From the NCBI RefSeq assembly GCF_036365525.1, contig NC_090399.1, positions 42,440,430 through 42,504,429 of the forward strand: 64,000 bases of DNA. Reading direction: 5' to 3'. Below, in pieces: positions 2,177 to 35,400 of this stretch (position 1 is the first letter of the stretch; each line of letters starts with the position of its first letter). A program made the translations under genes and the position numbers. The notes under the pieces were generated by a model. It did not search any database. It saw nothing but the letters and a program-made list of their open reading frames with translations, and was not told the DNA's origin. The DNA is from Heterodontus francisci. Lineage: Eukaryota.

Positions 2177-2223
2177 TCAGGCATTGGCGGAGGAGCTGGA
2201 TGAGGATTCCCCTTTATCAGAAG
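2177..2223 (-). CDS. MHC class I heavy chain, exon 7 (Ser-rich cytoplasmic tail and stop)
   Basis: (T)SDKGESSSSSSANA*; acceptor taacag| at 2224; TGA at 2179-2177 is followed by G|gtatg, a probable donor to a 3'UTR exon (exon 2176-2223 = 48 bp). Confidence 0.85.
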
Positions 2224-2609: not shown

Positions 2610-2642
2610 TCTTTGTAGGATTGTAGCCGCTCGTCCCTGTCA
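2610..2642 (-). CDS. MHC class I heavy chain, exon 6 (cytoplasmic, Tyr-containing)
   Basis: (V)TGTSGYNPTK; 33 bp phase 1/1 exon with acceptor tttttcag| and donor |gtaag; carries the conserved cytoplasmic Tyr. Confidence 0.88.
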
Positions 2643-3202: not shown

Positions 3203-3310
3203 CTTTCCTCTTATAGACAGCGACAGCCACAATGACGAGAACGATGATCAGCCCAAGGATCCCAAGTACAATCCCGACAGTAACAGGGATCTGGGAGTCA
3301 GACTTTAGTC
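3203..3310 (-). CDS. MHC class I heavy chain, exon 5 (connecting peptide and transmembrane)
   Basis: (G)LKSDSQIPVTVGIVLGILGLIIVLVIVAVAVYKRK(G): a hydrophobic helix followed by a basic stop-transfer. Acceptor caacag| at 3311, donor |gtagg at 3202; 108 bp, and the phase matches alpha3. Confidence 0.93.
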
Positions 3311-4781: not shown

Positions 4782-4799
4782 TGGCATAGTCGGCAGGAT
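4782..4799 (+). promoter_or_regulatory. Primer binding site, tRNA-Ser
   Basis: TGGCATAGTCGGCAGGAT matches 17/18 to the complement of the vertebrate tRNA-Ser 3' end (…ATCCTGCCGACTACGCCA); the single mismatch is a CpG-type G>A. Confidence 0.88.
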
Positions 4800-9880: not shown

Positions 9881-9918
9881 AGACCGACCAGTTATCAGGA
9901 AAATTAGCATTTGCCAAT

Positions 9919-10861: not shown

Positions 10862-10976
10862 GCGCAACCCCTCTGGGTGTTGACGGCTGTTTCTAGACAA
10901 GTAGAGACCATTAAAGGCACCAAGGTGGGATTGATGGAAAGATTCTTAAAGAAGTTTGAAGAGTCAAAGTGGGGAC

Positions 10977-11460
10977 TCTGGGGACAGATTAAAAGTAAGC
11001 TAAATCAGCAAACAAACTAACTGTGCAGTTGTGGAGCCAATTTATAAAACATAACAGCCTAAGAAGCTAACAGGACAGCTGCAGATAGTTTAATAGTAGA
11101 GTATTGTTTAATAATCAGCCTAACAGTTCAAGGAGGGGGAATGTGAAACTACTGAAATAAAATGCAAGAATAAAATGCTGAGTCGAATGAACCAATCATG
11201 GACTGATAATAGAAGTCTGCAAACCACTCAGAAATAAGGGGGGGGGGGGGGGGGAGGCGTTACTAGTTTTGTTTGAATAACTATAAGAAAGGCTTTTATA
11301 TAAGAAAGACTTGCTGCAGTGAGCACATGTTCTTTTGCATGTTCTTTGTTTTGCTTTTTGTTCTTTTGTACCCTTGCAACGTAACAACCATATACGGCAA
11401 TAAAGTTTCTAAAAGTTATGGTCGGACTTCGTTTCTCTTTGTAACCGATGGGATCCAACA
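10977..11460 (+). repeat. ERV 3' LTR (preceded by the polypurine tract AAAGTGGGGAC)
   Basis: Homologous to 4311-4778; AATAAA at 11399-11404; ends CCAACA. Confidence 0.93.
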
Positions 11461-11703
11461 GTTACTTACAAAATATTGTTTAGTTAATGGGAATTTTTAG
11501 TTTAGATAAATCTTGCCCTGTAATTCTTGAAATTGCTCTGGGAATGTCAGATCTTGTGTTTTACCATTAACGGTCTCACTGAGGTGGAAACACTGTGTAT
11601 CCTGGGCCTCAGCCTGTCCTGGGCTGGTAGCTCAGCACTGACCCTCCCTCCTGTGCTCCTGCTCTGAGGCTGGGACCCCTCTAACAGTGAGAGACAGTCT
11701 TAC

Positions 11704-11967
11704 CATAAATCACCACCATCATCTCCGTCAGCCCGCTGTGCTCCACCCGACAGGAATACTCAGCCTGGTCTTCCGGATCAAACTCTATCCATTTCCGGAT
11801 CTGGTAGGTTCTGTCGTGATTGGGTAAAATCCCAGAGGACAGGGTCTCATCGATCATCACTCCATCTCTCCACAGAGTCACCTCGATGGCCTGAGGGTAA
11901 AACCCAGTGACGACACAGGACAGCCGGTTAGAATCACCTGGACGTGTAAAGGACACGACGGGGGCGA
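11704..11967 (-). CDS. MHC class I heavy chain, exon 4 (alpha3 Ig C1 domain)
   Basis: (V)APVVSFTRPGDSNRLSCVVTGFYPQAIEVTLWRDG...LPNHDRTYQ...YSCRVEHSGL; C1-set motifs GFYP and YxCxVxH. Acceptor tctcag| at 11968, donor |gtaag at 11703; 264 bp. Confidence 0.97.
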
Positions 11968-12079: not shown

Positions 12080-12519
12080 TTCACTCACCGATTCTTGGTC
12101 CATTCATCCGCACATCCCCTCATTCACCGACTCTCAGTCCCTCCCTCCCTTCACTCTCCGACTCTCGGTCCCACCCCCCTCACTCACTCACTGACTCTCA
12201 GTCTCTCCTCCTCAATATCTCACCGACTCTCTGTCCCCCCACCTCGCTCACCGACTCTCAGTCCGTCTGTTCCCCCCCTGCTCACCGACTCAGTCCCTCC
12301 CCCTCACTCACTCACTGACTCTCAGTCCCTCCCCCTCACTCACTCACTCAACTCTCAGTCCCTCCCCCTCACTCACTCACCGACTCTCAGCCCCTCCGTC
12401 CCCCCCTCGCTCACCGACTCTCAGTCCCTCCCCCTCACTCACTCAACTCTCAGTCCCTCCCCCTCACTCACTCACTGACTCTCAGTCCCTCCGTCCCCCC
12501 TTACTCACCGACTCTCAGT
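12080..12519 (+). repeat. Intron 3 minisatellite built from the exon 3 / intron 3 junction
   Basis: About 11-12 imperfect ~35-bp copies of CTCACCGACTCTCAGTCCCTCCCCCTCA, which is the reverse complement of CTGAGAGTCG|GTGAG. Confidence 0.88.
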
Positions 12520-12781
12520 TCTCGCTGTCCGTACAGCAGGTATTTCCTCAGCCACTCAATACACTCCTCCTCCAAGTAATTCTTCCAGCCCAGATTGCCA
12601 ACTCTGTCCTGGTTCCAATTGTGTTGGATGTTCTGCCCCCATGGGACCGGTGTCACCCACACCATGTGATCCTTGTCAAAGCTGAGGAAGTCTCGTCCGT
12701 CCCAGCCGTACTGGTTGAATCCAGTGCTGGTCCCATCGTCCCGCAGGTCACAGCCGGTCATCATCTGGATTGTACGGATCC
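12509..12781 (-). CDS. MHC class I heavy chain, exon 3 (alpha2 domain)
   Basis: (G)IRTIQMMTGCDLRDDG...YGWDGRDFLSFDKDHMVW...WKNYLEEECIEWLRKYLLYGQRELRV; C101/C164 pair, Y159 and Y171 present. Acceptor acag| at 12782, donor |gtgagt at 12508; 273 bp. Confidence 0.97.
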
Positions 12782-12794
12782 CTGTCAATAAGAC

Positions 12795-13042
12795 ACACCC
12801 AGCCAATCAGACCCAGTACCGCTGGGAGCCCCCGCCCACCACAAAAACAGCCAATCAGGCACAATGACAATAGGCGACCCCACCCACTATCCCCCAGCTA
12901 ACAGCCAATCAGATCCAGTCCCACTGGGAGACCCCGCCCACCACACAGCCAATCAGCCTCTGTCCCACTGGGAGACCCCGCCCACTATTCCCCAGCTAAC
13001 AGCCAATCAGACCTAGTCCCACTGGGAGACCCCGCCCACTGC
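12795..13042 (+). repeat. ~50-bp tandem repeat containing CCAAT and GC boxes (intron 2)
   Basis: AGCCAATCAG occurs 5 times (about 12801, 12849, 12903, 12947, 13001), alternating with CCCCGCCCAC four times and CCCCACCC once. Confidence 0.85.
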
Positions 13043-13059
13043 CTGTTATTAATCACCTG

Positions 13060-13688
13060 GGGAGATGGGGCATTTAAAGAAGCCCCGGAACCCAACGGTG
13101 TATTTAAAAGGACAGGTGCTGTAGGATCTGTAAACTGAAAGGGCCCCAGGAAACCAATCTGTATATATAAAGAAACGTGATCTACATATTTTAAAGAGCA
13201 CTTGGATGCTGATCTGTCTATTTAAAAGGACACCCCTGGACCTTGTTCTGTGTATTTAAAGCAACATTCCCCCACATCCGAACCCTGTTCTCTATTTAAA
13301 GGAGCACTCCCCCTTTTCTGGACCCTGTTCTGTATATTTACAACAACACTCACCACCACCTTCTCAAGGGCAATTCGGGATGGACAATAAATGCTGGCCT
13401 CGCCAGCAATGCCCACATCTCCCGAGCGAATGAAAAAAAAATACTGCCCTGACCCCGAGCCCTCTTTCTGTGCACTTAAAGGAACACTCCCCCACCCCCA
13501 GACCTGGTTCTGTGTATTTAAAGGAACACCACCCTGCCCCCAGACCTTGTTCTGTGTAATTAAAGGGACATTCCCCCACATCCAAACCCTGTTCTGTGTC
13601 TTTAAAGGAATACCCCACCCCGGACTCTGTTCTGTGTACTTAACTGAACACTCCCGCAACCTCAAATCTTGTTCTGTATAATTTAAAA
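13060..13688 (+). repeat. ~40-bp TGTGTATTTAAAGGAACACTCCCC minisatellite, left part
   Basis: Repeated GTTCTGTGTATTTAAAGGAACACTCCCCCA..GACCCT units; contains a ~90-bp LINE 3'-end insert at about 13350-13441 ending in poly-A. Confidence 0.85.
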
Positions 13689-14607
13689 TGTTACGACCAG
13701 GTGAGAAATGTGTCTAGGGGTCTATTACTATCTTCACCTGGTCTAGGGGTTACTATCTTCACCTGGTCTTATTGCAACAGGGTTTAATTTTAAATACACT
13801 GTGTATTGAACTCCCCCTTTGTGAATCCTTGTTCACAACTTTCCAATTATAAGGCAAAGAAATGAGCAGAAACAGGTTTTCTTTGGTTTAAAGAAGAAAA
13901 GTGAAATTTACTAAACTTATTTAAACTTAAACTCTAAGATGGTTCACACCTACGGATATATGACACACCCATGCTAGCATGCACAGACGATTCACACATG
14001 CAAATAGGAACAGAAAAGAGAGGAAATTATAAGGTGAAAGGTTTAAGGCAGTCTATAATGGAGGTTCTTTACTGTGCTTCGAGCTCACTTGATTGTTGGT
14101 AGTCTTGCTGTTCATCGGGGCCCAGTGTTCTTCTTAAACCTTATTCACATAGGAGAATTTTCTCTCTTTGAGGTTCACATGTTTTCACAAGATTCAATTC
14201 CCTGAGAGATGGGCAGGCAGACAGGAGAGAGATGTTCTCAGTCCAAGAGCAAACAGCCTTCTGATTTTCAAACACACTGCGGCAAGTTCAAAATTCAAAC
14301 AACTCCAACAGTCAGCCAGCCATGTAATCGAACCAGTCCGGCCACATCTGTTTGTGTATTCGGCCATCTTTGCAGTTAACCTGGAATGCTAGCATTTCCA
14401 CCTTCAACGCCTGGTAATCAAACGTCCACTATGGATTAAATTGGAGCAGGGAATTGCTCCTTTGTCCTTGGAAGTACTTGTCTGTTGAGATGCTAATGTC
14501 TCTTTCCAGCCAAAGTTTCTAATTGTTTTTTTAAAGCAGTTTAAAATCAAAGTTCATGTGGCAAAATTAATTTCCCTCATTCTTGGCCAGTGGGGGTTTG
14601 CCTGACA
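13689..14607 (-). mobile_element. Probable solo LTR (~920 bp)
   Basis: TGTTAC...TGACA termini, inserted into the TTTAAAGGAAC unit with a probable 4-bp TSD (AAAA/AAAG). The terminus at 14555-14607 recurs inverted at 17502-17554. Confidence 0.7.
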
Positions 14608-16407
14608 AAAGGAACATTCCCCCACCTGCCTGGAGGGAGTTGGGATTGGCGGCGGATCTGTGAGGAACCAGTTACCAGGGAGTGTATAAAGCGAGACCCA
14701 GGCTCAGGGCCTTCACCTACCTGGAGGGAGTCGGGAGAGGCGGCGGATCTGCGAGGAACCAATTACTATGGAGTGTGCAAAGCGAGACCCAGGCTCAGGG
14801 CCTTCACCCACCTGGAGGGAGTCAGGAGAGGCGGCGGATCTACGAGGAACCTGAAGCGTATAAAGAGAGACCTAGGCTCAGGGCCTTCACTGACCTGGAG
14901 GGAGTTGGGAGAGGTGGCTGATCTGTGAAGAGCCAATTAGATGCCGGAGTTTAAAAAAAACACCATTGCATCACAGGAAAGTCATGAGTTGATTGGCTGG
15001 TGAGTATTGCTGCTTTGAGACTGAGTTTAAACAATTGAGAATTTAAATCATTAAACATTTTAAGTATTAATCACAAGTAACAAGTGAGTAGCTGGTGAGT
15101 CTTGTCTTTTATTTTTAAATAAGCTTTATAACTATTGGTGAGGTTAATTCTACTATTGGGAACATTTTAGTATTGGTAGGATGTATTAATAGTGGTAAGG
15201 TTTATCAGTATTGGTAGTTTCTTATTAGCAATGGTAAAGTTATTATGACTATTGGTAAGGTTTATTACTACTGGTAGGATTTATTAGTAGTAGCACGGCT
15301 TATTAGTAGCATGGTTTAATTGTAGTACCAAGGTTTATTATCTAACAGACAGAGAAATGGCAGGGTTGCTCCAACCTCTGGAGGGCACATCCTGTGTTGT
15401 GTGGGAACTCCAGGACACTTCCCATATCCTGGTAAACCATATGTGCTGGAATTGTCAGCAGTTGCAAAGCCTGAGCTCTGGGTTTCAGAACTTAAGCAAC
15501 AACTGGTGTCACTGCGGAGCATCCGTGAGATTGATAGCTTTGTGGATAGCACATTTATAGATGTGGTCACCCTGCAGCTTAACAGTGTATAGGAAAAGAG
15601 GAATAGATGACCACCAGACAGTCAGGTAGTGAAGGAGACCCCTGACTGCATCTCATTCTCCAACCAGTATTCAGTTCTGAATACTGATGATTGTTCACCT
15701 GGGGAGTGCAGTCAGAGCCGAGGCCATGGCACCACGGGTGGCTCAGCTGCACAGGGGAGCACAATGAGGCAATAGTGATAAGAGATTCAATAGTCAGGGG
15801 AACAGACAGATGTTTCTGTGACAGCAGACGTGAATCCAGGATGGTGTGTTGCCTCCATGGTGCCAGGATCAAGGATGTCACTGGCTGCAGAGCACTCTGA
15901 GGGGAAAGAGGGAACAACCAACAGTCATGGCTCATACTGGTAACAACATAGTTAGAATGAGGGATGTGGCCCTGCAGAAAGAGTTTAGTGAGCTTGGTAA
16001 GAAATAAGCAAGTAGGACCTCAAAATTAGTCATCTCCAGACTGCTCCCAGTGCCACATGCAAATGAGTATAGAAATAGGACGATAGTGCAGATGAATGCA
16101 CGGCTGGAAAGATGTTCCAGGAGGGAGGGCTTTAGATTCCTGGGACACTGGGACCAGTTCTGGAGAAGGTGGGACCTGTCAAGACTGGGTGGGTTGCATC
16201 TGAACAGAGCTGGGACAAATGTCCTCGTGGGGCGATTTGCTAGTGTTATTGGGGAGAGTTTAAACTAACTTGGCAGGGCTGTGGGAACAGTGAGATAATA
16301 CAAGAAAGGACACCAAGATGCACAGAGAATTGAAAGAGACCGATAGCATTAGAGTAGGAAATAGGAAAGTATTACGTGATGTCTGAGTGAGAGTGTTAGT
16401 ACTTGAT

Positions 16408-17030
16408 CATAGAGTCATTTACAGCACAGAAGGAAGCTGTTCGGCCCGTCGAGTCTGTGCTTTCTCTCCACTGAGCTATCCAGTCAGTCCCACTCCCCTG
16501 CTCAATCCCCATTGCCCTGCAAGTCTATTTCTCTCAGGTGGCCATCCGACTTCCTCTTGAAGTCATTGATCGTCTCCGCTTCCACCATCCTTGTGGACAG
16601 CGAGTTCCAGGTCATTACCACCCACTGTGTAAAAAGTGCTTCCTCATATTCTCCCTGCATCTTTTGTCCAAAACCTTCAATCTGTGTCCCCTAGCCCTTG
16701 TACCATTAGTTAATGGGAACAGTTTTTCCTCTAAGCTTGTCATAATCTTGTCCATTTCTATTAAATCTCCTCTCAATCTCTTTTGTTCTAAGGAGAACAA
16801 ACCCAGCTTTTCCAACCTAACATTGTAACTAAAATCCTCCATCCCTAGAACCATTCTGGTAAATATCCTCTGCACCTTATCTCGGATCCTCACATCCTTC
16901 CTGAAGTGTGATAACCAGAACTGAACAGGATACTCCAGTTGGGGCCTAACCAGAGATTTATAAAGGTTCAGCACAACTTCCCTGCTTTTGTGCTCAATGC
17001 CTGTGTTTATGAAGCCCAAGATCTCATATG
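16408..17030 (-). mobile_element. 5'-truncated CR1 3' end inserted antisense into the CR1
   Basis: ORF 16615-17019 (LYKSLVRPQLEY...RLEKLGLFSLEQKRLRGDLIE); same 3' tail as 19490-19520 but inverted. Confidence 0.9.
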
Positions 17031-17559
17031 TTTAAAGAAGGGAATAGTTCCATATTGGATGGGAGTGAATGGAAAAGGACTATGAAGAATGCAAAGACAG
17101 GATTACAATGTACATGTGTAAACACAAAAAGTGTGGTGAATCAGGTTGGTGAGCTACAAGCACAAATAGCATTCTGGGAATATGATATGGTGGCAATAAC
17201 GGAAACATGGCTTACAAATGGCGGGGACTGAGTGCTTAATATACAAGGATAGATGTTCAGCAAAGATAGAGAAGGAAATAAGGGAGGTGGGGTGGCAGTC
17301 CTGATTAGGGAAGACATTGCAGTGCTGGAAAGGGAGGATGCATGGAAGGGGTAAGGACAGAATCCATTTGGTTAGAGTTGAGGTGCAAAAAAGTCTATGA
17401 TAACAGTCCTAGGAGTATTGTATAGTGAGAGAGATAGAAGAGCAAATCTGCAGGGAAATCACAAAGATGTGCAATAACTATGCAGTGGTGATACTGGAGG
17501 ATGTCAGGCAAACCCTCCACCTGCCAAGAATGAGGAAAATTAATTTCGCCACATGGTGG

Positions 17560-18285
17560 GTGGAATGTCAAGGGAGATGGTTAGGTTCTCCGTTTTTGGA
17601 GATGGTCATTGCCTGGCAATTGTGTGGCGTGAATGTTACTTGCCACTTATCAGCCCAAGCCTGCATATTGTCCAGGTCTTGCTGCATTTCCACACAGACT
17701 TCCTCAGTATGTGAGTCATTGTGAATGGTGCAGAACATCGCACATTTATCAGCGAACATCCCCACTTCTGATCTTATGGTTAAAGGAAGGTCACTGATGA
17801 AGCAGCTAAAGATGGTTGGGCCTAGGACACTACCTTGAGGAACTCCTGCAGTAATGTCCTGGAGCTGAGATGATTGACCTCCAACAACCACAGCCATCTT
17901 CCTCTGCGTTAGGTATGACTCCGACCAGCAGAGAGTTTTCCACCTGATTCCCATTGATTCCAGTTTTGCTAGGGCTCCTTGATGCCATACTCTGTCAAAG
18001 GCAGTTACTCTCACCTCACCTCTTTTGTCCATGTTTGGACCAGGTTTGTACTGAGGTCAGGAGCTGAGTGGCCGTGACTTGGAACTATATCCCCGTTCCT
18101 TCACTGTCACTAGGTCAAAGGCCTGGATCTTCCTTCCTAACAGCACTGTGGGTGTACCTACCCAACATGGACTGCAGCGGTTCAAGAAGGCAGCTCACCA
18201 GCACCTTCCCAAGGGCAATAAGGGATGGACAATAAATGCTGGCCTAGCCAACGTTGCCCACATCTCCTGAACGAATGAAAAAAAA
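17560..18285. mobile_element. Second-family LINE (CR1/L2 group) fragment with inverted 5' part
   Basis: Minus-strand RT (AFDRVWH..GVPQGSVLGPTIF..FADK) at 17568-18032 is joined to a plus-strand 3' end (…AATAAATGCTGGCC…GAATGAAAAAAAA) at 18078-18285. Confidence 0.8.
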
Positions 18286-19520
18286 TCATGCTTGACTAAT
18301 CTAATTGAATTTTTTGATAAAGTAACAGGGAAGGTTGATCAAGGAAATGTTGTGGATGTTGTTCATGCGGATTGTAAAAAGGTATTTGATAACAGACAAC
18401 ATAAAAGGCTGATCAACAAAATTGAGGCTCATGGAATAGGTGGATCAATGCCCAATTGGATAAAAAAAAAAATTGGCTTAAGGACAGAAAACAGCGAGTT
18501 ATAGTAAATGGTTGCTTTTCAGAATGGAGCGGGTAGACAGTGGTGTTCCCCAAGGGTCAGTGCTGGGATCAATGCTTTTATGTATGTTGTAAAAATGACT
18601 TGGATCTTGAAATACAGAAACAAATCCCAAAATTTGCTAATGACACCAACTTGGAGAACTTGAACTGCCTGCATCAGGACATAGATAGGACATAGTGCGC
18701 AGAAAGGGGCAGATGAAGTTTAACACAATGTGAGGTAATGCACTGTGGCAGAAGGAATAGGGAGAGGCAGTATATACTTAATGGCACAGTTCTAAAGAGT
18801 GTGCAAAAACAGAGGGACCTGGGGGTGCATGTGCATAGATCTTTGAAGGTTTCAGGACATATTGAGAGAGGATTAGTAAAGCATATGGGATCTTGGGCTT
18901 CATAAATAGAGGTACTGAGTACAAATGCAGGAAGATTATGCTGAGCCTTTATAAAGCTCTGGTTAGACCCTAACTGGAGTATTGCTTCCAATTCTGGTCA
19001 CCACACTTCAGGAATGATGTGAGGGTCCTTGAGAGGGTGTAGAGGAGATTTACCAGAATGGTTCCAGGGATGGAGGATTTTAGTTACAAGGTTAGGTTAG
19101 AAAAGCTGGGTTTGTTCTCCTTGGAGCAAAGGAGATTGAGGGAGATTTAATAGATGTGTAGAAGATTATGACAGGCTTAGATAAGGTAATCAAGAAAAAC
19201 TGTTCCCATTAACTAATGGTACAAGGACCAGGGGACACAGATTGAAAGTTTTGGGTAAGAGATGTAGGAGGAGGTTGAGGAGAAACGTTTTTACGCAGCA
19301 GGTGGTAATGACCTGGAACTCACTGCCCACAAGGATGATGGAAGCAGAGACGATCAATAACTTCAAAAGGAAATTGCACGGCCACCTGAGAGAAATAAAC
19401 CTGCAGGGCTAGGGGGATTGAGCATAGCAGTGGGACTGAGTGGACAGTTCAGTGGAGAGTCAGCATGGACTTGATGGGCAAATGGCCTCCTTCTGTGCTG
19501 TAAATGACTCTATGTCTATG

Positions 19521-19980
19521 ACCCCTGGACCCCATTCTGTGATTTAATGGAACAGTCTCCCACCCCCCACAACGCTGTTCTGTGTATTTAAAGCAACACT
19601 CCCTCACTCTTGGTGCACTGTGTATTTAAAGGAACACTCCCCCAACACCCCTCCCCCCCCACCCCGTTCTGTGTATTTAAAGGAACACTCCCTCACTCCG
19701 AAACCTTGCTCTGTGTATTTAAAGGAACACTCCCCCAACATCCACCCACCTCCCCCCCACTGGTTCTGTGTATTTAAAGGAACAGTTCTTCACTCCTGGA
19801 CACTGCTCTGTTTATTTAAACGAACACTCCCCCACCCCCGGACCCTGTGCTGTGTCTTTAGAGGAACACTCCCTCACTCCGAGACATTGCTCTGTGTATT
19901 TAAAGAAACACTCCCCCACCCCCGGACCCTGTGCTGTGTGTTAAAGGACACCCAGAAATTGATCTGTGTATTTAATGAAA
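19521..19980 (+). repeat. ~40-bp TGTGTATTTAAAGGAACACTCCC minisatellite, right part
   Basis: Same unit as 13060-13688, about 11 copies. Confidence 0.88.
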
Positions 19981-20131
19981 CGACTATCCCATTGGGCACT
20001 ACCCTGTGGAACTACTTTTCTCGGGTGCATTGCCTCCCTGATCCTGCTCCACTTCCAGCTTCGCCCCATTCCATCCCGGATCCGTCAACTCACAGAAAGA
20101 GGCCGAGCGAAGTAGGAGGTTGAGGACTCAC

Positions 20132-20392
20132 CCGCTGACTGGTTGGCTCGGGACATGAGGATCGGAATACGGGCCTTGAACTTCATCTCTCGCTCCTGTG
20201 CCAGGAACTTCTTCCGTGCCCAAGCCTCAGGCCCTTCACTCTCCACCATCCACTGCTCCCGAGGAATCAACTCCTTCCGATCGCTGTCGTACATAACAAA
20301 CTGGACATCGTCAACATAACCGACACCCACAAACTCCGGGAAACCAGGATTTGGAGTCATGGACGTGAAGAAATACCGGAGAGAGTGAGAGC
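20132..20392 (-). CDS. MHC class I heavy chain, exon 2 (alpha1 domain)
   Basis: Translates (G)[87 protein letters not shown], with class I motifs [14 protein letters not shown] and the N86 glycosylation site NQS. Acceptor tttcag| at 20393, donor |gtgagt at 20131; 261 bp, phase 1/1. Confidence 0.97.
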
Positions 20393-20400: not shown

Positions 20401-23400
20401 CAGAGAAAAAGACATCAGGACATGAACCCCAAACCACCAACCCCACACAGAGAGAGAAATCGGGACATGAACCTCAAACCACCAACCCCACACAGAGAGA
20501 GCATTCAGGACATGAACCCCAAAACACCAACCCCACACAGAGAGAGAAATCGGGACATGAACCTCAAACCACCAACCCCACAGAGACACATCAGGACATG
20601 AACCCCAAAACACAAACCCCTCACAGAGAAACATCAGGACATGAACCCCAAAACACCAACCCCACATATCGAGACACATCAGGACATGAACCCCAAAAAC
20701 CAACCCCTCACAGAGAAACATCAGGACATGAACCCCAAAATACCAACCCCACACAGAGAGAGACATCAGGACATGAACCCCAAAACACCAACCCCACACA
20801 GAGAAACATCAGGACATGAACCCCAAAACACCAACCCCTCACAGAGAAACATCAGGACATCAACCCCAAACAGACAGACATCAGGACATGAACCCACAAA
20901 CACCAACCCCACACAGAGACATCAGGACATGAACCCCAAAACACCAACCCCACACAGACAGACATCAGGACATGAACCCCAAAACACCAACCCCACACAG
21001 ACAGACATCAGGACATGAACCCCAAAACACCAACCCCAATCAGAGAGACGTCAGGACATGAACCCAGAAACACCAACCCCACACAGAGAGAGACATCAGG
21101 ACATGAACCCCAAAACACCAACCCCAATCAGAGAGACGTCAGGACATGAACCCAGAAACACCAACCCCACTCAGAGAGACACATCAGGACATGAACCCCA
21201 AAACACAAACCCCACACAGACAGACATCAGGACATGAACCCCAAAACATCAACCCCACACAGAGACATCAGGACATGAACCCCAAAACACAAACCCCACA
21301 CAGAGACACATCAGGACATGAACCCCAAAACACCAACCCCACACATCGAGACACATCAGGACATGAACCCCAAAACACCAACCCCACATATCGAGACACA
21401 TCAAGACATGAACCCCAAAACACCAACCCCACACATCGAGACACATCAGGACATGAATCCCAAAACACCAACCCCACACATCGAGACACATCAGGACATG
21501 AACCCCAAAACACCAACCCCTCACAGAGAAACATCAGGACATGAACCCCAAAACACCAACCCCACACATCGAGACACATCAGGACATGAACCCCAAAACA
21601 CAAACCCCACACATCGAGACACATGAGGACATGAACCCCAAAACACCAACCCCACACAGAGACACATCAGGACATGAACCCCAAAACACCAACCCCACAC
21701 AGAGACACATCAGGACATGAACCCCAAAACACCAACCCCACAAAAAGACATCAGGACATAAACCCCAAAACACCAACCCCACACAGAGAGACATCAGGAC
21801 ATAAACCCCAAAACACCAACCCCACAAAAAGACATCAGGACATAAACCCCAAAACACCAACCCCACACAGAGAGACATCAGGACATAAACCCCAAAACAC
21901 CAACCCCACACAGAGAGACATCAGGACATGAACCCAAAAACACCAGCCCCACACAGAGAGAGACATCAGAACATGAACCCCAAAGCACCAACCCCTCACA
22001 GAGAAACATCAGGACATGAACCCCAAAATACCAACCCCACACAGAGAGAGACATCAGGACATGAACCCCAAAACACCAACCCCACGCAGAGAGTCATCAG
22101 GACATGAACCCCAAAACACCAACCCCACACAGAGAGACATCAGGACATGAACCCCAAAACACCAACCCCACACAGAGAGACATCAGGACATGAACCCCAA
22201 AACACCAACCCCACACAGAGAGACATCAGGACATGAACCCCAAAACACCAAACCCACACAGAGAGACATCAGGACATGAACCCCAAAACACGAACCCCAC
22301 ACAGACAGACGTCAGGACATGAACCCAGAAACACCAACCCCACAGAGACACATCAGGACATGAACCTCAAACCACCAACCCCACACAGAGAGAGACATCA
22401 GGACATGAACCCCAAAACACCAACCCCACACAGAGAGAGACATCAGGAGATGAACACCAAAACACCAACCCCAATCAGAGAGACGTCAGGACATGAACCC
22501 AGAAACACCAACCCCACTCAGAGAGACACATCAGGACATGAACCCCAAAACACAAACCCCACACAGACAGACATCAGGACATGAACCCCAAAACATCAAC
22601 CCCACACAGAGACATCAGGACATGAACCCCAAAACACAAACCCCACACAGAGACACATCAGGACATGAACCCCAAAACACCAACCCCACACATCGAGACA
22701 CATCAGGACATGAACCCCAAAACACCAACCCCACATATCGAGACACATCAAGACATGAACCCCAAAACACCAACCCCACACATCGAGACACATCAGGACA
22801 TGAACCCCAAAACACCAACCCCACACATCGAGACACATCAGGACATGAACCCCAAAACACCAACCCCTCACAGAGAAACATCAGGACAAGAACCCCAAAA
22901 CACCAACCCCACACATCGAGACACATGAGGACATGAACCCCAAAACACCAACCCCACACAGAGAGACACATCAAGACATGAACCCCAAAACACCAACCCC
23001 ACACAACGAGACACATCAGGACATGAACCCCAAAACACAAACCCCACACAGAGACACATGAGGACATGAACCCCAAAACACCAACCCCACACAGAGAGAC
23101 ATCAGGACATGAACCCCAAAACACCAACCCCACACAGAGAGACACATCAAGACATGAACCCCAAAACACCAACCCCACACAGAGACACATCAAGACATGA
23201 ACCCCAAAACACCAACCCCACACATCGAGACACATCAAGACATGAACCCCAAAACACCAACCCCACACATCGAGACACATCAAGACATGAACCCCAAAAC
23301 ACCAACCCCACACATCGAGACACATCAAGACATGAACCCCAAAACACCAACCCCACACAGAGAGACATCAGGACATGAACCCCAAAACACCAACCCCACA

Positions 23401-26400
23401 CATCAAGACACATCAAGACATGAACCCCAAAACACCAACCCCACACAGAGAGACACATCAGGACATGATCCCCAAAACACCAACCCCACACATTGAGACA
23501 CATCAGGACATGAACCCCAAAACACCAACCCCACACAGAGAGACATCAGGACATGAACCCCAAAACACCAACCCCACACATCGAGACACATCAAGACATG
23601 AACCCCAAAACACCAACCCCACACAGAGAGACACATCAAGACATGAACCCCAAAACACCAACCCCACACATCGAGACACATGAGGACATGAACCCCAAAA
23701 CACCAACCCCACACAGAGACACATCAGGACATGAACCCCAAAACACCAACCCCACACAGAGAGACATCAGGATATGAACCCAAAACACCAACCCCACACA
23801 GAGACACATCAGGACATGAACCCCAAAACACCAACCCCACAAAAAGACATCAGGACATAAACCCCAAAACACCAACCCCACACAGAGAGACATCAGGACA
23901 TGAACCCCAAAACACCAACCCCACACAGAGAGACATCAGGACATGAACCCAAAAACACCAGCCCCACACAGAGAGAGACATCAGGACATGAACCCCAAAA
24001 CACCAACCCCTCACAGAGAAACATCAGGACATGAACCCCAAAACACCAACCCCACACAGAGAAACATCAGGACATGAACCCCAAAACACCAACCCCACAC
24101 AGAGAAACATCAGGACATGAACCCCAAAACACCAACCCCTCACAGAGAAACATCAGGACATCAACCCCAAACAGACAGACATCAGGACATGAACCCACAA
24201 ACACCAACCCCACACAGAGACATCAGGACATGAACCCCAAAACACCAACCCCACACAGACAGACATCAGGACATGAACCCCAAAACACCAACCCCACACA
24301 GACAGACATCAGGACATGAACCCCAAAACAGCAACCCCAATCAGAGAGACGTCAGGACATGAACCCAGAAACACCAACCCCACACAGAGAGAGACATCAG
24401 GACATGAACCCCAAAACACCAACCCCAATCAGAGAGACGTCAGGACATGAACCCAGAAACACCAACCCCACTCAGAGAGACACATCAGGACATGAACCCC
24501 AAAACACAAACCCCACACAGACAGACATCAGGACATGAACACCAAAACATCAACCCCACACAGAGACATCAGGACACGAACCCCAAAACACAAACCCCAC
24601 ACAGAGACACATCAGGACATGAACCCCAAAACACCAACCCCACACATCGAGACACATCAGGACATGAACCCCAAAACACCAACCCCACATATCGAGACAC
24701 ATCAAGACATGAACCCCAAAACAGCAACCCCACACATCGAGACACATCAGGACATGAACCCCAAAACACCAACCCCACACATCGAGACACATCAGGACAT
24801 GAACCCCAAAACACCAACCCCTCACAGAGAAACATCAGGACATGAACCCCAAAACACCAACCCCACACATCGAGACACATCAGGACATGAACCCCAAAAC
24901 ACAAACCCCACACATCGAGACACATGAGGACATGAACCCCAAAACACCAACCCCACACAGAGACACATCAGGACATGAACCCCAAAACACCAACCCCACA
25001 CAGAAACACATCAGGACATGAACCCCAAAACACCAACCCCACAAAAAGACATCAGGACATAAACCCCAAAACACCAACCCCACACAGAGAGACATCAGGA
25101 CATGAACCCCAAAACACCAACCCCACACAGAGAGACATCAGGACATGAACCCAAAAACACCAGCCCCACACAGAGAGAGACATCAGGACATGAACCCCAA
25201 AACACCAACCCCTCACAGAGAAACATCAGGACATGAACCCCAAAATACCAACCCCACACAGAGAGAGACATCAGGACATGAACCCCAAAACACCAACCCC
25301 ACGCAGAGAGTCATCAGGACATGAACCCCAAAACACCAACCCCACACAGAGAGACATCAGGACATGAACCCCAAAACACCAACCCCACACAGAGAGACAT
25401 CAGGACATGAACCCCAAAACACCAACCCCACACAGAGAGACATCAGGACATGAACCCCAAAACACCAAACTCACACAGAGAGACATCAGGACATGAACCC
25501 CAAAACACGAACCCCACACAGACAGACGTCAGGACATGAACCCAGAAACACCAACCCCACAGAGACACATCAGGACATGAACCTCAAACCACCAACCCCA
25601 CACAGAGAGAGACATCAGGACATGAACCCCAAAACACCAACCCCACACAGAGAGAGACATCAGGACATGAACACCAAAACACCAACCCCAATCAGAGAGA
25701 CGTCAGGACATGAACCCAGAAACACCAACCCCACTCAGAGAGACACATCAGGACATGAACCCCAAAACACAAACCCCACACAGACAGACATCAGGACATG
25801 AACCCCAAAACATCAACCCCACACAGAGACATCAGGACATGAACCCCAAAACACAAACCCCACACAGAGACACATCAGGACATGAACCCCAAAACACCAA
25901 CCCCACACATCGAGACACATCAGGACATGAACCCCAAAAGACCAACCCCACATATCGAGACACATCAAGACATGAACCCCAAAACACCAACCCCACACAT
26001 CGAGACACATCAGGACATGAACCCCAAAACACCAACCCCACACATCGAGACACATCAGGACATGAACCCCAAAACACCAACCCCTCACAGAGAAACATCA
26101 GGACAAGAACCCCAAAACACCAACCCCACACATCGAGACACATGAGGACATGAACCCCAAAACACCAACCCCACACAGAGAGACACATCAAGACATGAAC
26201 CCCAAAACACAAACCCCACACATCGAGACACATGAGGACATGAACCCCAAAACACCAACCCCACACATCGAGACACATCAGGACATGAACCCCAAAACAC
26301 AAACCCCACACAGAGACACATGAGGACATGAACCCCAAAACACCAACCCCACACAGAGAGACATCAGGACATGAACCCCAAAACACCAACCCCACACATC

Positions 26401-29400
26401 GAGACACATCAAGCCATGAACCCCAAAACACCAACCCCACACAGAGAGACATCAGGACATGAACCCCAAAACACCAACCCCACACATCGAGACACATCAA
26501 GACATGAACCCCAAAACACCAACCCCACACAGAGAGACACATCAGGACATGATCCCCAAAACACCAACCCCACACATTGAGACACATCAGGACATGAACC
26601 CCAAAACACCAACCCCACACAGAGAGACATCAGGACATGAACCCCAAAACACCAACCCCACACATCGAGACACATCAAGACATGAACCCCAAAACACCAA
26701 CCCCACACAGAGAGACACATCAAGACATGAACCCCAAAACACCAACCCCACACATCGAGACACATGAGGACATGAACCCCAAAACACCAACCCCACACAG
26801 AGACACATCAGGACATGAACCCCAAAACACCAACACCACACAGAGAGACATCAGGATATGAACCCAAAACACCAACCCCACACAGAGACACATCAGGACA
26901 TGAACCCCAAATCACCAACCCCACAAAAAGACATCAGGACATAAACCCCAAAACACCAACCGCACACAGAAAGACATCAGGACATGAACCCCAAAACAAC
27001 AACCCCACACAGAGAGACATCAGGACATGAACCCAAAAACACCAGCCCCACACAGAGAGAGACATCAGGACATGAACCCCAAAGCACCAACCCCTCACAG
27101 AGAAACATCAGGACATGAACCCCAAAATACCAACCCCACACAGAGAGAAACATCAGGACATGAACCCCAAAACACCAACCCCACACATCGAGACACATGA
27201 GGACATGAACCCCAAAACACCAACCCCACACAGAGACACATCAGGACATGAACCCCAAAACACCAACCCCACACAGAGAGACATCAGGATATGAACCCAA
27301 AACACCAACCCCACACAGAGACACATCAGGACATGAACCCCAAAACACCAACCGCACAAAAAGACATCAGGACATAAACCCCAAAACACCAACCCCACAC
27401 AGAGAGACATCAGGACATGAACCCCAAAACACCAACCCCACACAGAGAGACATCAGGACATGAACCCAAAAACACCAGCCCCACACAGAGAGAGACATCA
27501 GGACATGAACCCCAAAGCACCAACCCCTCACAGAGAAACATCAGGACATGAATCCAAAATACCAACCCCACACAAAGAGAGACATCAGGACATGAACCCC
27601 AAAACACCAACCCCACGCAGAGAGTCATCAGGACATGAACCCCAAAACACCAACCCCACACAGAGAGACATCAGGACATGAACCCCAAAACACCAACCCC
27701 ACACAGAGAGACATCAGGACATGAACCCCAAAACACCAACCCCACACAGAGAGACACATGAGGACATGAACCCCAAAACACCAACCCCACACATCGAGAC
27801 ACATCAGGACATGAACCCCAAAACACCAACCCCACACAGAGACACATGAGGACATGAACCCCAAAACACCAACCCCACACATCGAGAGACATCAGGACAT
27901 GAACCCCAAAACACCAACCCCACACAGAGAGACACATCAAGACATGAACCCCAAAACACCAACCCCACACATTGAGACACATCAGGACATGAACCCCAAA
28001 ACACCAACCCCACACAGAGAGACATCAGGACATGAACCCCAAAACACCAACCCCACACATCGAGACACATCAAGACATGAACCCCAAAACACCAACCCCA
28101 CACAGAGAGACACATCAAGACATGAACCCCAAAACACCAACCCCACACATCGAGACACATGAGGACATGAACCCCAAAACACCAACCCCACACAGAGACA
28201 CATCAGGACATGAACCCCAAAACACCAACCCCACACAGAGAGACATCAGGATATGAACCCAAAACAACAACCCCACACAGAGACACATCAGGACATGAAC
28301 CCCAAAACACCAACCCCACAAAAAGACATCAGGACATAAACCCCAAAACACCAACCCCACACAGAGAGACATCAGGACATGAACCCCAAAACACCAACCC
28401 CACACAGAGAGACATCAGGACATGAACCCAAAAACACCAGCCCCACACAGAGAGAGACATCAGGACATGAACCCCAAAGCACCAACCCCTCACAGAGAAA
28501 CATCAGGACATGAACCCCAAAATACCAACCCCACACAGAGAGAGACATCAGGACATGAACCCCAAAACACCAACCCCACACATCGAGACACATGAGGACA
28601 TGAACGCCAAAACACCAACCCCACACAGAGACACATCAGGACATGAACCCCAAAACACCAACCCCACAAAAAGACATCAGGACATAAACCCCAAAACACC
28701 AACCCCACACAGAGAGACATCAGGACATGAACCCCAAAACACCAACCCCACACAGAGAGACATCAGGACATGAACCCAAAAACACCAGCCCCACACAGAG
28801 AGAGACATCAGAACATGAACCCCAAAGCACCAACCCCTCACAGAGAAACATCAGGACATGAATCCAAAATACCAACCCCACACAGAGAGAGACATCAGGA
28901 CATGAACCCCAAAACACCAACCCCACGCAGAGAGTCATCAGGACATGAACCCCAAAACACCAACCCCACACAGAGAGACATCAGGACATGAACCCCAAAA
29001 CACCAACCCCACACAGAGAGACATCAGGACATGAACCCCAAAACACCAACCCCACACAGAGAGACATCAGGACATGAACCCCAAAACACCAACCCCACAC
29101 AGAGACACATCAGGACATGAACCCCAAAACACGAACACCACACAGACAGACATCAGGACATGAACCCCAAAACACCAACCCCAATCAGAGAGACGTCAGG
29201 ACATGAACCCAGAAACACCAACCCCACAGAGACACATCAGGACATGAACCTCAAACCACCAACCCCACACAGAGAGAGACATCAGGACATGAACCCCAAA
29301 ACACCAACCCCACACAGAGAGAGACATCAGGACATGAACACCAAAACACCAACCCCAATCAGAGAGACGTCAGGACATGAACCCAGAAACACCAACCCCA

Positions 29401-32400
29401 CTCAGAGAGACACATCAGGACATGAACCCCAAAACACAAACCCCACACAGACAGACATCAGGACATGAACCCCAAAACATCAACCCCACACAGAGACATC
29501 AGGACATGAACCCCAAAACACAAACCCCACACAGAGACACATCAGGACATGAACCCCAAAACACCAACCCCACACATCGAGACACATCAGGACATGAACC
29601 CCAAAACACCAACCCCACATATCGAGACACATCAAGACATGAACCCCAAAACACCAACCCCACACATCGAGACACATCAGGACATGAACCCCAAAACACC
29701 AACCCCACACATCGAGACACATCAGGACATGAACCCCAAAACACCAACCCCTCACAGAGAAACATCAGGACATGAACCCCAAAACACCAACCCCACACAT
29801 CGAGACACATCAGGACATGAACCCCAAAACACCAACCCCACACATCGAGACACATGAGGACATGAACCCCAAAACACCAACCCCACACAGAGAGACACAT
29901 CAAGACATGAACCCCAAAACACAAACCCCACACATCGAGACACATGAGGACATGAACCCCAAAACACCAACCCCACACATCGAGACACATCAGGACATGA
30001 ACCCCAAAACACAAACCCCACACAGAGACACATGAGGACATGAACCCCAAAACACCAACCCCACACAGAGAGACATCAGTACATGAACCCCAAAACACCA
30101 ACCCCACACAGAGAGACACATCAAGACATGAACCCCAAAACACCAACCCCACACAGAGACACATCAAGACATGAACCCCAAAACACCAACCCCACACATC
30201 GAGACACATCAAGACATGAACCCCAAAACACCAACCCCACACATCGAGACACATCAAGACATGAACCCCAAAACACCAACCCCACACATCGAGACACATC
30301 AAGACATGAACCCCAAAACACCAACCCCACACAGAGAGACATCAGGACATGAACCCCAAAACACCAACCCCACACAGAGAGACACATCAGGACATGATCC
30401 CCAAAACACCAACCCCACACATTGAGACACATCAGGACATGAACCCCAAAACACCAACCCCATACAGAGAGACATCAGGACATGAACCCCAAAACACCAA
30501 CCCCACACATCGAGACACATCAAGACATGAACCCCAAAACACCAACCCCACACAGAGAGACACATCAAGACATGAACCCCAAAACACCAACCCCAACACA
30601 GAGAGACACATCAGGACATGAACCCCAAAACACCAACCCCACACAGAGAGACACATCCGGACATGAACCCCAAAACACCAACCCCACACAGAGAGACATC
30701 AGGACATGAACCCCAAAACACCAACCCCACACAGAGACACATCAGGACATGAACCGCAAAACACCAACCCCACACATTGAGACACATCAGGACATGAACC
30801 CCAAAACACCAACCCCACATAGAGAAACATCAGGACATGAACCCCAAAACACCAACCCCACACATCGAGACACATCAAGACATGAACCCCAAAACACCAA
30901 CCCCACACAGAGAGACACATCAGGACATGATCCCCAAAACACCAACCCCACACATTGAGACACATCAGGACATGAACCCCAAAACACCAACCCCACACAG
31001 AGAGACATCAGGACATGAACCCCAAAACACCAACCCCACACATCGAGACACATCAAGACATGAACCCCAAAACACCAACCCCACACAGAGAGACACATCA
31101 AGACATGAACCCCAAAACACCAACCCCACACATCGAGACACATGAGGACATGAACCCCAAAACACCAACCCCACACAGAGACACATCAGGACATAAACCC
31201 CAAAACACCAACCCCACACAGAGAGACATCAGGATATGAACCCAAAACACCAACCCCACACAGAGACACATCAGGACATGAACCCCAAAACACCAACCCC
31301 ACAAAAAGACATCAGGACATAAACCCCAAAACACCAACCCCACACAGAGAGACATCAGGACATGAACCCCAAAACACCAACCCCACACAGAGAGACATCA
31401 GGACATGAACCCAAAAACACCAGCCCCACACAGAGAGAGACATCAGGACATGAACCCCAAAGCACCAACCCCTCACAGAGAAACATCAGGACATGAACCC
31501 CAAAATACCAACCCCACACAGAGAGAAACATCAGGACATGAACCCCAAAACACCAACCCCACACATCGAGACACATGAGGACATGAACCCCAAAACACCA
31601 ACCCCACACAGACACACATCAGGACATGAACCCCAAAACACCAACCCCACACAGAGAGACATCAGGATATGAACCCAAAACACCAACCCCACACAGAGAC
31701 ACATCAGGACATGAACCCCAAAACACCAACCCCACTAAAAGACATCAGGACATAAACCCCAAAACACCAACCCCACACAGAGAGACATCAGGACATGAAC
31801 CCCAAAACACCAACCCCACACAGAGAGACATCAGGACATGAACCCAAAAACACCAGCCCCACCCAGAGAGAGACATCAGGACATGAACCCCAAAGCACCA
31901 ACCCCTCACAGAGAAACATCAGGACATGAATCCAAAATACCAACCCCACACAGAGAGAGACATCAGGACATGAACCCCAAAACACCAACCCCACGCAGAG
32001 AGTCATCAGGACATGAACCCCAAAACACCAAACCCACACAGAGAGACATCAGGACATGAACCCCAAAACACCAACCCCACACAGAGAGACATCAGGACAT
32101 GAACCCCAAAACACCAACCCCACACAGAGAGACACATGAGGACATGAACCCCAAAACACCAACCCCACACATCGAGACACATCAGGACATGAACCCCAAA
32201 ACACAAACCCCACACAGAGACACATGAGGACATGAACCCCAAAACACCAACCCCACACATCGAGAGACATCAGGACATGAACCCCAAAACACCAACCCCA
32301 CACAGAGAGACACATCAAGACATGAACCCCAAAACACCAACCCCACACATCGAGACACATCAAGACATGAACCCCAAAACACCAACCCCACACAGAGAGA

Positions 32401-35400
32401 CATCAGGACATGAACCCCAAAACACCAACCCCACACATCGAGACACATCAAGACATGAACCCCAAAACACCAACCCCACACAGAGAGACACATCAGGACA
32501 TGATCCCCAAAACACCAACCCCACACATTGAGACACATCAGGACATGAACCCCAAAACACCAACCCCACACAGAGAGACATCAGGACATGAACCCCAAAA
32601 CACCAACCCCACACATCGAGACACATCAAGACATGAACCCCAAAACACCAACCCCACACAGAGAGACACATCAAGACATGAACCCCAAAACACCAACCCC
32701 ACACATCGAGACACATGAGGACATGAACCCCAAAACACCAACCCCACACAGAGACACATCAGGACATGAACCCCAAAACACCAACCCCACACAGAGAGAC
32801 ATCAGGATATGAACCCAAAACAACAACCCCACACAGAGACACATCAGGACATGAACCCCAAAACACCAACCCCACAAAAAGACATCAGGACATAAACCCC
32901 AAAACACCAACCCCACACAGAGAGACATCAGGACATGAACCCCAAAACACCAACCCCACACAGAGAGACATCAGGACATGAACCCAAAAACACCAGCCCC
33001 ACACAGAGAGAGACATCAGGACATGAACCCCAAAGCACCAACCCCTCACAGAGAAACATCAGGACATGAACCCCAAAATACCAACCCCACACAGAGAGAG
33101 ACATCAGGACATGAACCCCAAAACACCAACCCCACACATCGAGACACATGAGGACATGAACGCCAAAACACCAACCCCACACAGAGACACATCAGGACAT
33201 GAACCCCAAAACACCAACCCCACACAGACAGACATCAGGATATGAACCCAAAACACCAACCCCACACAGAGACACATCAGGACATGAACCCCAAAACACC
33301 AACCCCACAAAAAGACATCAGGACATAAACCCCAAAACACCAACCTCACACAGAGAGACATCAGGACATGAACCCCAAAACACCAACCCCACACAGAGAG
33401 ACATCAGGACATGAACCCAAAAACACCAGCCCCACACAGAGAGAGACATCAGGACATGAACCCCAAAGCACCAACCCCTCACAGAGAAACATCAGGACAT
33501 GAATCCAAAATACCAACCCCACACAGAGAGAGACATCAGGACATGAACCCCAAAACACCAACCCCACGCAGAGAGTCATCAGGACATGAACCCCAAAACA
33601 CCAACCCCACACAGGGAGACATCAGGACATGAACCCCAAAACACCAACCCCACACAGAGAGACATCAGGACATGAACCCCAAAACACCAACCCCACACAG
33701 AGAGACATCAGGACATGAACCCCAAAACACCAACCCCACACAGAGAGACATCAGGACATGAACCCCAAAACACGAACCCCACACAGACAGACATCAGGAC
33801 ATGAACCCCAAAACACCAACCCCAATCAGAGAGACGTCAGGACATGAACCCAGAAACACCAACCCCACAGAGACACATCAGGACATGAACCTCAAACCAC
33901 CAACCCCACACAGAGAGAGACATCAGGACATGAACCCCAAAACACCAACCCCACAGAGAGAGAGACATCAGGACATGAACCCCAAAACACCAACCCCAAT
34001 CAGAGAGACGTCAGGGCATGAACCCAGAAACACCAACCCCACTCAGAGAGACACATCAGGACATGAACCCCAAAACACAAACCCCACACAGACAGACATC
34101 AGGACATGAACCCCAAAACATCAACCCCACACAGAGACATCAGGACATGAACCCCAAAACACAAACCCAACACAGAGACACATCAGGACATGAACCCCAA
34201 AACACCAACCCCACATATCGAGACACATCAAGACATGAACCCCAAAACACCAACCCCACACATCGAGACACATCAGGACATGAACCCCAAAACACCAACC
34301 CCACATATCGAGACACATCAAGACATGAACCCCAAAACACCAACCCCACACATCGAGACACATCAGGACATGAACCCCAAAACACCAACCCCACACATCA
34401 AGACACATCAGGACATGAACCCCAAAACACCAACCCCTCACAGAGAAACATCAGGACATGAACCCCAAAACACCAACCCCACACATCGAGACACATCAGG
34501 ACATGAACCCCAAAACACCAACCCCACACATCGAGACACATGAGGACATGAACCCCAAAACACCAACCCCACACAGAGAGACACATCAAGACATGAACCC
34601 CAAAACACAAACCCCACACATCGAGACACATGAGGACATGAACCCCAAAACACCAACCCCACACATCGAGACACATCAGGACATGAACCCCAAAACACAA
34701 ACCCCACACAGAGACACATGAGGACATGAACCCCAAAACACCAACCCCACACAGAGAGACATCAGGACATGAACCCCAAAACACCAACCCCACACAGAGA
34801 GACACATCAAGACATGAACCCCAAAACACCAACCCCACACAGAGACACATCAAGACATGAACCCCAAAACACCAACCCCACACATCGAGACACATCAAGA
34901 CATGAACCCCAAAACACCAACCCCACACATCGAGACACATCAAGACATGAACCCCAAAACACCAACCCCACACATCGAGACACATCAAGACATGAACCCC
35001 AAAACACCAACCCCACACAGAGAGACATCAGGACATGAACCCCAAAACACCAACCCCACACATCGAGACACATCAAGACATGAACCCCAAAACACCAACC
35101 CCACACAGAGAGACACATCAGGACATGATCCCCAAAACACCAACCCCACACATTGAGACACATCAGGACATGAACCCCAAAACACCAACCCCACACAGAG
35201 AGACATCAGGACATGAACCCCAAAACACCAACCCCACACATCGAGACACATCAAGACATGAACCCCAAAACACCAACCCCACACAGAGAGACACATCAAG
35301 ACATGAACCCCAAAACACCAACCCCACACAGAGAGACACATCAGGACATGAACCCCAAAACACCAACCCCACACAGAGAGACACATCCGGACATGAACCC

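What the first reader, a model, noticed from the sequence alone, without database searches (positions are those of the whole stretch)
12509..20392. Intact MHC class I gene with a non-classical peptide groove (Y59A, T143I, K146N, H93R)
Seen: the alpha1 and alpha2 exons are open and keep Y7, R84, N86-glycan, C101/C164, W147, Y159 and Y171. However, EGPEYW is EGPEAW, the T143-x-x-K146-W147 motif reads I-Q-H-N-W, and the GxHT motif reads GIRT. Established: Y59 helps bind the peptide N-terminus and T143/K146 bind the C-terminus, and these are near-invariant in classical class I from sharks to mammals. Inference: this is a non-classical class I gene, either a derived UAA-like paralogue or one of the other chondrichthyan lineages, with altered ligand handling at both groove ends.
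Basis: partly seen in the sequence, partly recalled or inferred. Interest (0 to 1): 0.7.

Follow-up and report, generated by a model that had tools for sequence, protein, structure and literature searches.

The report
Horn shark nonclassical MHC gene (UBA)
This is a horn shark copy of an already described family of non-classical immune-presentation genes (UBA); its odd groove residues are mostly the ordinary signature of that family, so the finding is real but not new.

Summary
Six minus-strand coding exons (20392 to 2177) have GT-AG introns and no stops. They splice to the mature part of horn shark RefSeq protein XP_067865799.1 exactly. A deposited horn shark protein, AAC60348.1, is 99% identical and carries all four substitutions. 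In a maximum-likelihood tree the gene groups (100/99) with nurse shark AAC60347, the published UBA reference, away from classical UAA; forcing it with UAA is rejected. Y59 is absent in 38 of 38 UBA-clade rows, T143 in 37 of 38 and K146 in 33 of 38. H93R is private to this copy and its near-twin and is not a groove residue. The leader exon is not in the window: a 43.6 kb satellite runs off its edge. A decayed endogenous retrovirus fills intron alpha3-TM. Transcription of this particular copy is not shown. The ligand of UBA is unknown; a modified-peptide or other restricted ligand is inferred.

The parts
20132..20392 (-). alpha1 exon (261 bp); Y7, R84, N86 kept; A59 and K63 (HLA numbering)
12509..12781 (-). 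alpha2 exon (273 bp); R93, I143, N146; C101/C164, W147, W156, Y159, E163, W167, Y171; Q96, D119, G120, D122 kept
11704..11967 (-). alpha3 exon (264 bp), C1-set Ig domain of the UBA type
   Evidence: (E 3.9e-16)
3203..3310 (-). connecting peptide / transmembrane exon (108 bp)
2610..2642 (-). first cytoplasmic exon (33 bp), holds the tail tyrosine
2177..2223 (-). last coding exon with stop codon
4313..11467 (+). decayed endogenous retrovirus inside the alpha3-TM intron, antisense to the gene; LTR-like pair at 4313-4782 and 10979-11467; pol domains lie in separate, interrupted ORFs
20410..64000 (.). tandem satellite, 43-bp period, about 1015 copies, running off the window; lies where intron 1 should be

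Best explanation
This is a horn shark (Heterodontus francisci) MHC class Ib gene of the multicopy elasmobranch UBA lineage, one of two near-identical copies among several UBA paralogues. Shown here: identity, lineage, open reading frame and class I fold (about 0.95 for this part). Inferred mechanism (about 0.5): the heavy chain pairs with beta2-microglobulin and reaches the cell surface. It no longer anchors ordinary 8-10-mer peptide ends in the classical way. At the N-terminal end the Y7/Y59/E63 network is replaced by a small residue at 59 and Lys63, probably paired across the groove with Glu163 next to Trp167. At the C-terminal end T143 and K146 are lost while R84 and W147 remain. It most likely presents a restricted set of ligands, such as end-modified or end-protruding peptides, to innate-like T cells or NK-type receptors. 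Paralogues vary mainly at the C-terminal end.
For: Spliced exons equal the C-terminal 327 residues of XP_067865799.1. AAC60348.1 differs at 4 positions, one in alpha1/alpha2. AAC60347 is labelled Gcirratum_UBA in the supplement of PMC10751288. Careful tree of 48 rows: one 22-row clade at 100/99 holds the gene and AAC60347, and excludes 6LUP, Triakis alleles, horn shark's own UAA-type genes and three UDA-like rows. The clade persists (SH-aLRT 94) on alpha1+alpha2 with the five trait columns removed. AU test p = 2.15e-05. Counts, UBA clade versus other shark/ray rows: Y59 0 of 38 vs 39 of 46; T143 1 of 38 vs 45 of 46; K146 5 of 38 vs 39 of 46; K63 36 of 37 vs 4 of 46. K63 with E/D163: 34 of 36 vs 4 of 46. 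Mean entropy in UBA is 0.75 at the A end and 1.97 at the F end. AlphaFold model pLDDT 80.2; best Foldseek match 6LUP, TM 0.88 by target. Contigs in 4 of 4 laid runs skip exactly the alpha3-TM intron.
Against: The listed alpha3-TM junction contigs differ from this copy by one synonymous letter, and AAC60348.1 matches the twin copy at positions 221 and 284, so transcripts may come from paralogues. The leader exon is not in the window. In the alpha3-only tree the sawfish and sawshark members fall outside the UBA group. The groups in the counts and in the AU test were named after a tree was seen.
Confidence: 0.8

Rival explanations
1. This particular copy is a silent or barely expressed recent duplicate; the expressed gene is its near-identical twin (XP_067865801/803).
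For: AAC60348.1 shares I221 and V284 with the twin, not with this copy. The listed alpha3-TM junction contigs carry one letter that differs from the window. The gene holds a 7 kb provirus and at least 43.6 kb of satellite upstream of alpha1, and no leader is visible.
Against: All six exons are open with canonical splice sites, and a RefSeq model with leader matches exactly. The provirus is antisense and intronic. One contig in run X5 continues from alpha3 into 13 letters identical to the window's alpha2 end, though the twin would probably give the same. Two joints and many table rows were not shown, so an exact junction may be among them.
Confidence: 0.2
2. UBA binds a non-peptide ligand (lipid, phospho-metabolite or other anion), working like CD1, MR1 or chicken YF1.
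For: Over 33 groove-facing positions UBA is more hydrophobic (mean 0.40 vs -0.27) and more basic (+2.0 vs +1.0) than other shark/ray class I; this copy scores +4. MR1 structures fill many Foldseek ranks after 6LUP.
Against: 6 of 9 canonical terminal-binding residues are kept in this copy. Nurse shark classical 6LUP is as hydrophobic (0.47) as the UBA mean, and this copy is only 0.16. MR1 hits have lower query TM-scores (mostly 0.61-0.65; 0.67 for one mouse entry) than 6LUP (0.69) or fish and chicken classical class I (up to 0.68), and are many entries of one protein. Position 45 is Leu in 36 of 38, not the Lys that MR1 uses (equivalence recalled). Rows are related, so the p-values overstate independence.
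Confidence: 0.15
3. It is an unusual allele of the classical polymorphic UAA locus.
For: Overall UAA-like sequence; 58% identity to 6LUP.
Against: AU test rejects. Horn shark has separate genes that keep T143/K146 and group with UAA (P0056, P0057, P0061). Alpha3 identity averages 84% to UBA rows and 56% to other rows.
Confidence: 0.02

Closest known systems
Horn shark class I protein AAC60348.1 (O19480) and RefSeq XP_067865799.1 / XP_067865801.1 / XP_067865803.1
   Same: XP_067865799.1 matches the spliced window exons exactly; AAC60348.1 is 99% identical and has A59, R93, I143, N146.
   Different: AAC60348.1 differs at K71T, T221I, G284V and by one extra Ala at the alpha3-TM junction, so it is closer to the twin copy. 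RefSeq gives only an automatic 'F10 alpha chain-like' name with no lineage.
Elasmobranch UBA lineage (nurse shark AAC60347)
   Same: Same clade (100/99); shares loss of Y59, T143 and K146, plus K63, L45, W156, E163 and the UBA-type alpha3.
   Different: A59 vs F59, N146 vs R146, F66 vs L66 is not the case (L66 shared) but R93 is private; this copy's groove is more basic (+4 vs +1).
Classical shark UAA (PDB 6LUP)
   Same: Same fold (TM 0.88 by target, 58% identity); Y7, R84, W147, Y159, W167, Y171, Q96, D119, D122 shared.
   Different: UAA keeps Y59, E63, T143, K146 and is described as a single gene beside TAP/PSMB8/9 (PMC10751288).
Human HLA-F (functional analogue only)
   Same: A nonclassical class I whose N-terminal pocket is blocked by one helix substitution and which binds long, open-ended peptides (PMC6524545, passage).
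   Different: Unrelated origin; HLA-F uses W62 and still anchors the C-terminus, whereas UBA has K63 and has also lost T143/K146.

Membership tests
UBA (elasmobranch class Ib) | Groups with the reference UBA sequence AAC60347 | tested here: met
   100/99; 94 without trait columns; 87 on alpha3 alone
UBA (elasmobranch class Ib) | Derived from / nested among UAA-type sequences | tested here: met
   Inside the 42-row shark/ray UAA+UBA clade (99/98), apart from UDA-like rows; statement of derivation in PMC12562908
UBA (elasmobranch class Ib) | Multicopy | tested here: met
   Eight distinct horn shark RefSeq ectodomain types in the clade (P0037, P0035/36, P0006, P0038, P0004, P0052, P0064, P0063), all on a record of 74,466,956 bases
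UBA (elasmobranch class Ib) | Cluster flanked by c4 and rxrb, away from the class Ia region | not testable with these tools
   No genome held for this window; no flanking gene lies in the window
UBA (elasmobranch class Ib) | Low polymorphism, restricted or low expression | tested here: inconclusive
   Only one alpha1/alpha2 difference between AAC60348.1 and the RefSeq copies; contigs cannot give levels
Classical UAA (class Ia) | Keeps Y59, T143, K146 | tested here: not met
Classical UAA (class Ia) | Groups with classical alleles | tested here: not met
   AU p = 2.15e-05
UDA | Groups with UDA sequences | tested here: not met
   Three unnamed rows labelled UDA-like by motif form their own clade (100/99), 37-42% identical to the window protein
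UCA / UEA / UFA / UGA | Groups with these divergent lineages | not tested
   No stored protein matched the UCA, UFA or UGA motifs (0 of 275), and the supplement lists no UEA, so none was in the tree; by eye the labelled UCA, UFA and UGA references are far more distant than UBA
MHC class I heavy chain | alpha1-alpha2-alpha3-TM-tail, C101-C164, N86 glycan site | tested here: met
MHC class I heavy chain | Associates with beta2-microglobulin | not tested
   Q96, D119, G120, D122 are kept (their interface role is recalled); no complex was predicted

The most novel reading that the evidence does not exclude
UBA has kept, across sharks and rays, a rebuilt N-terminal groove end (small residue 59, K63, E163, W167, L45, L66) that acts as a fixed lid or binds a fixed acidic or modified group, while paralogues diversify the C-terminal end. 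This horn shark copy, with R70, K73, R77 and R84 lining a +4 groove, would present an anionic ligand (phosphorylated or N-modified peptide, or a microbial phospho-metabolite) to innate-like T cells, a ligand class not yet shown for any cartilaginous fish class Ib molecule in the papers seen.
Probability: 0.15. Interest if true: 0.6.

Novelty: already known. Interest (0 to 1): 0.15.

Why it matters
As a finding it adds little: the protein is in RefSeq, a 99% identical protein is deposited, and UBA is a published nonclassical lineage. What is of some use is the residue survey. It shows that three of the four substitutions are lineage-wide, and that K63 with E163 is the most conserved UBA groove feature, with a conserved N-terminal end and a variable C-terminal end. 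This gives a concrete, testable model for a lineage whose function is unknown. If an unusual ligand were shown, it would bear on how early innate-like antigen presentation arose in jawed vertebrates.

Tried and rejected
Own-genome search: no genome held, so synteny and the leader's position could not be checked. Leader search in the window: best 7 of 16 matches in any frame and only 6-13-residue chance hits. Sequencing-run search: 11 holders of the alpha2 exon, no RNA holder listed on record; not used as evidence on expression. Depth is contig depth and was not used to rank expression. Single-sequence AlphaFold failed (pLDDT 43.9); the 42-row alignment model was used. The careful tree on all 101 rows did not finish; one search is the quick tree and was used only to define groups. 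Rows dropped: 11 of 117 partial proteins and 6 identical ectodomains. For counts, also left out: the window row, 6 isoforms or near-twins, 3 mosaic-looking rows and 7 outgroups. Paper searches for Hefr (2 irrelevant hits), His93+Asp119 (0 hits) and AAC60348/AF028557/AF028559 (0 occurrences of those terms; the AF numbers were recalled guesses) found no text on this horn shark sequence. Earlier scan notes: nothing. MR1-like reading from Foldseek ranks considered and given low weight. Complex prediction with beta2m not run: no beta2m sequence was in hand, and a pass would follow from likeness to 6LUP.
Full report
Observation. The minus strand holds six class I coding exons: alpha1 20392-20132, alpha2 12781-12509, alpha3 11967-11704, TM 3310-3203, cytoplasmic 2642-2610 and 2223-2177. 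All five introns are GT-AG, and the spliced frame has one stop, at the end. Pfam gives MHC_I for alpha1 and alpha2 and C1-set for alpha3. The best solved relative of both groove exons is nurse shark class I, 6LUP, and the alignments confirm Y59A, H93R, T143I and K146N. No leader exon was found. From 20410 to the window's end lies a 43-bp satellite of about 1015 copies with no gap over 85 bases between motifs. 'Intact' therefore applies to six of seven expected coding exons.

Identity. The alpha2 exon is 100% identical to O19480/AAC60348.1 of Heterodontus francisci. The spliced exons equal the end of RefSeq XP_067865799.1 exactly. A near-twin, XP_067865801/803, differs at T221I and G284V; AAC60348.1 shares those two and adds K71T and one junction Ala (that call's other listed differences came from two mis-set exon ends, corrected). 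That AAC60347-9 are the cDNA clones of Bartl et al. 1997 is my recall, supported only by adjacent accession numbers and by that paper being cited for UBA.

Lineage. The supplement of PMC10751288 labels AAC60347 as Gcirratum_UBA, and its UAA reference reads like the 6LUP chain. In a careful IQ-TREE tree of 48 ectodomains, the window protein lies in a 22-row clade (100/99) with AAC60347, within a six-row horn shark group (98/97). Outside it are 6LUP, Triakis alleles, horn shark UAA-type genes and three UDA-like rows. With columns 59, 63, 93, 143 and 146 removed, alpha1+alpha2 still gives this clade (SH-aLRT 94). Alpha3 alone groups the gene with 18 other shark rows (87), but the sawfish and sawshark members fall elsewhere. 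Holding it with the UAA clade costs 111 log-likelihood units, p-AU 2.15e-05; the group was named after the tree was seen. UBA is described as an expanded nonclassical family derived from UAA (PMC12562908) that forms its own MHC cluster between c4 and rxrb (PMC10751288). Synteny could not be tested. UCA, UEA, UFA and UGA were not in the tree.

How special are the substitutions? I compared 38 UBA-clade rows (14 species) with 46 other shark and ray rows (19 species); 17 of the 101 aligned rows were left out as listed under Tried and rejected. Y59: 0 of 38 vs 39 of 46 (A59 in 21 of 38). T143: 1 of 38 vs 45 of 46 (I143 in 32 of 38). K146: 5 of 38 vs 39 of 46 (N146 in 6 of 38). K63: 36 of 37 vs 4 of 46. 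R93: 1 of 38 vs 0 of 46. The window keeps 6 of 9 canonical residues; UBA rows keep 0 to 7. So three substitutions are the lineage signature, and the published nurse shark and ray UBA references already show I143 and R146. H93R is private to this copy and its twin. Position 93 is described as hydrogen-bonding the S2-S3 loop acid (pb3 to pb29; PMC8236899 section 16; mapping to H93/D119 is my inference). D119 is kept, so an R93-D119 salt bridge is plausible and the change need not touch the groove.

Mechanism. In classical class I, Y7, Y59, residue 63, Y159 and Y171 hold the peptide N-terminus, and R/Y84, T143 and K146 hold the C-terminus (PMC8236899). UBA alters two of the first set and two of the second. 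K63 co-occurs with E/D163 in 34 of 36 UBA rows vs 4 of 46 others, and W167 is invariant. The ten A-end positions are more conserved in UBA (entropy 0.75) than the ten F-end positions (1.97); other rows give 1.2 and 1.3. I infer a conserved, rebuilt N-terminal end and a paralogue-specific C-terminal end. The pocket lists and HLA numbering offsets are mine, from recall and the alignments. HLA-F shows that one helix change can block the N-terminal pocket and allow long peptides (PMC6524545); this is an analogy only. The AlphaFold model (pLDDT 80.2, pTM 0.60) has a normal class I layout and best matches 6LUP (E 2.3e-36, rmsd 2.6 A). Side-chain distances could not be measured. The groove is basic (+4 over 33 positions; UBA mean +2.0, sd 1.5), which keeps an anionic ligand open. 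Against a lipid groove, its hydrophobicity (0.16) is below that of classical 6LUP (0.47).

Expression. Contigs in 4 of 4 laid runs (at most 3 samples, 3 studies; RNA status is a guess or not on record) skip exactly the 8.4 kb alpha3-TM intron. The listed junctions carry one synonymous letter that differs from the window, so they show splicing of the family, not of this copy. One X5 contig runs from alpha3 into 13 letters identical to the alpha2 end. A silent-duplicate reading stays at about 0.2.

Surroundings. The alpha3-TM intron holds an antisense provirus with LTR-like ends (405 matches, 40 mismatches, 69 gap columns) and protease, RT, RNase H and MLV-type integrase domains in interrupted ORFs.

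Papers seen. PMC10751288: parts 1 and 3 of 7 of the text, passages, supplement parts 97-98 and search rows. PMC8236899: passages and section 16. PMC12562908, PMC6523485, PMC10140343, PMC6524545, PMC1513397: passages. Bartl 1997 and Almeida 2020/2021: reference entries only. Nine searches found no functional study of shark UBA and no mention of K63; the library lacks most subscription papers, so this is not proof of absence.

Verdict. A real, correctly read nonclassical class I gene, but an already annotated member of the known UBA lineage. Interest 0.15.

Noticed in passing
window 20410-64000: A 43-bp satellite of about 1015 copies (89% matches) starts 18 bases from the alpha1 acceptor side and runs off the window. 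If the RefSeq leader is right, intron 1 is over 43 kb of nearly pure satellite; the model might instead borrow a neighbour's leader.
   Followed up: partly
window 4313-11467 (+): Decayed endogenous retrovirus with MLV-type integrase C-terminus in the alpha3-TM intron; LTRs 91% identical without gaps, which seems old for a gene whose twin differs at only two residues. Whether the twin has it is unknown.
   Followed up: partly
P0029, P0042, P0044, P0045 (Heptranchias perlo): These carry the UBA-type K63 but keep T143 and K/R146 and have a different alpha3 type: possible intermediates or gene-conversion products.
   Followed up: no
P0059 (Stegostoma), P0066 (Hemiscyllium): UBA-type alpha3 (76-81% to the window) with UAA-like alpha1 (48-51%), F59, T143 and W146: mosaic-looking genes shared by two carpet sharks.
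   Followed up: no
P0065, P0071 (Pristis), P0033 (Pristiophorus): UBA-type alpha1/alpha2 but alpha3 grouping with UAA-type rows in the alpha3 tree, suggesting domain exchange.
   Followed up: no
window 16408-17033 and 18879-19514: Two inverted copies (83% identical) of a LINE-like fragment inside the 7.35 kb alpha1-alpha2 intron; CR1 type is recalled from the ORF pieces.
   Followed up: no
P0098 cluster (horn shark): A further class I group with 39 near-identical RefSeq members that keeps 9 of 9 canonical residues and resembles the supplement's 'UAA-2' reference.
   Followed up: no
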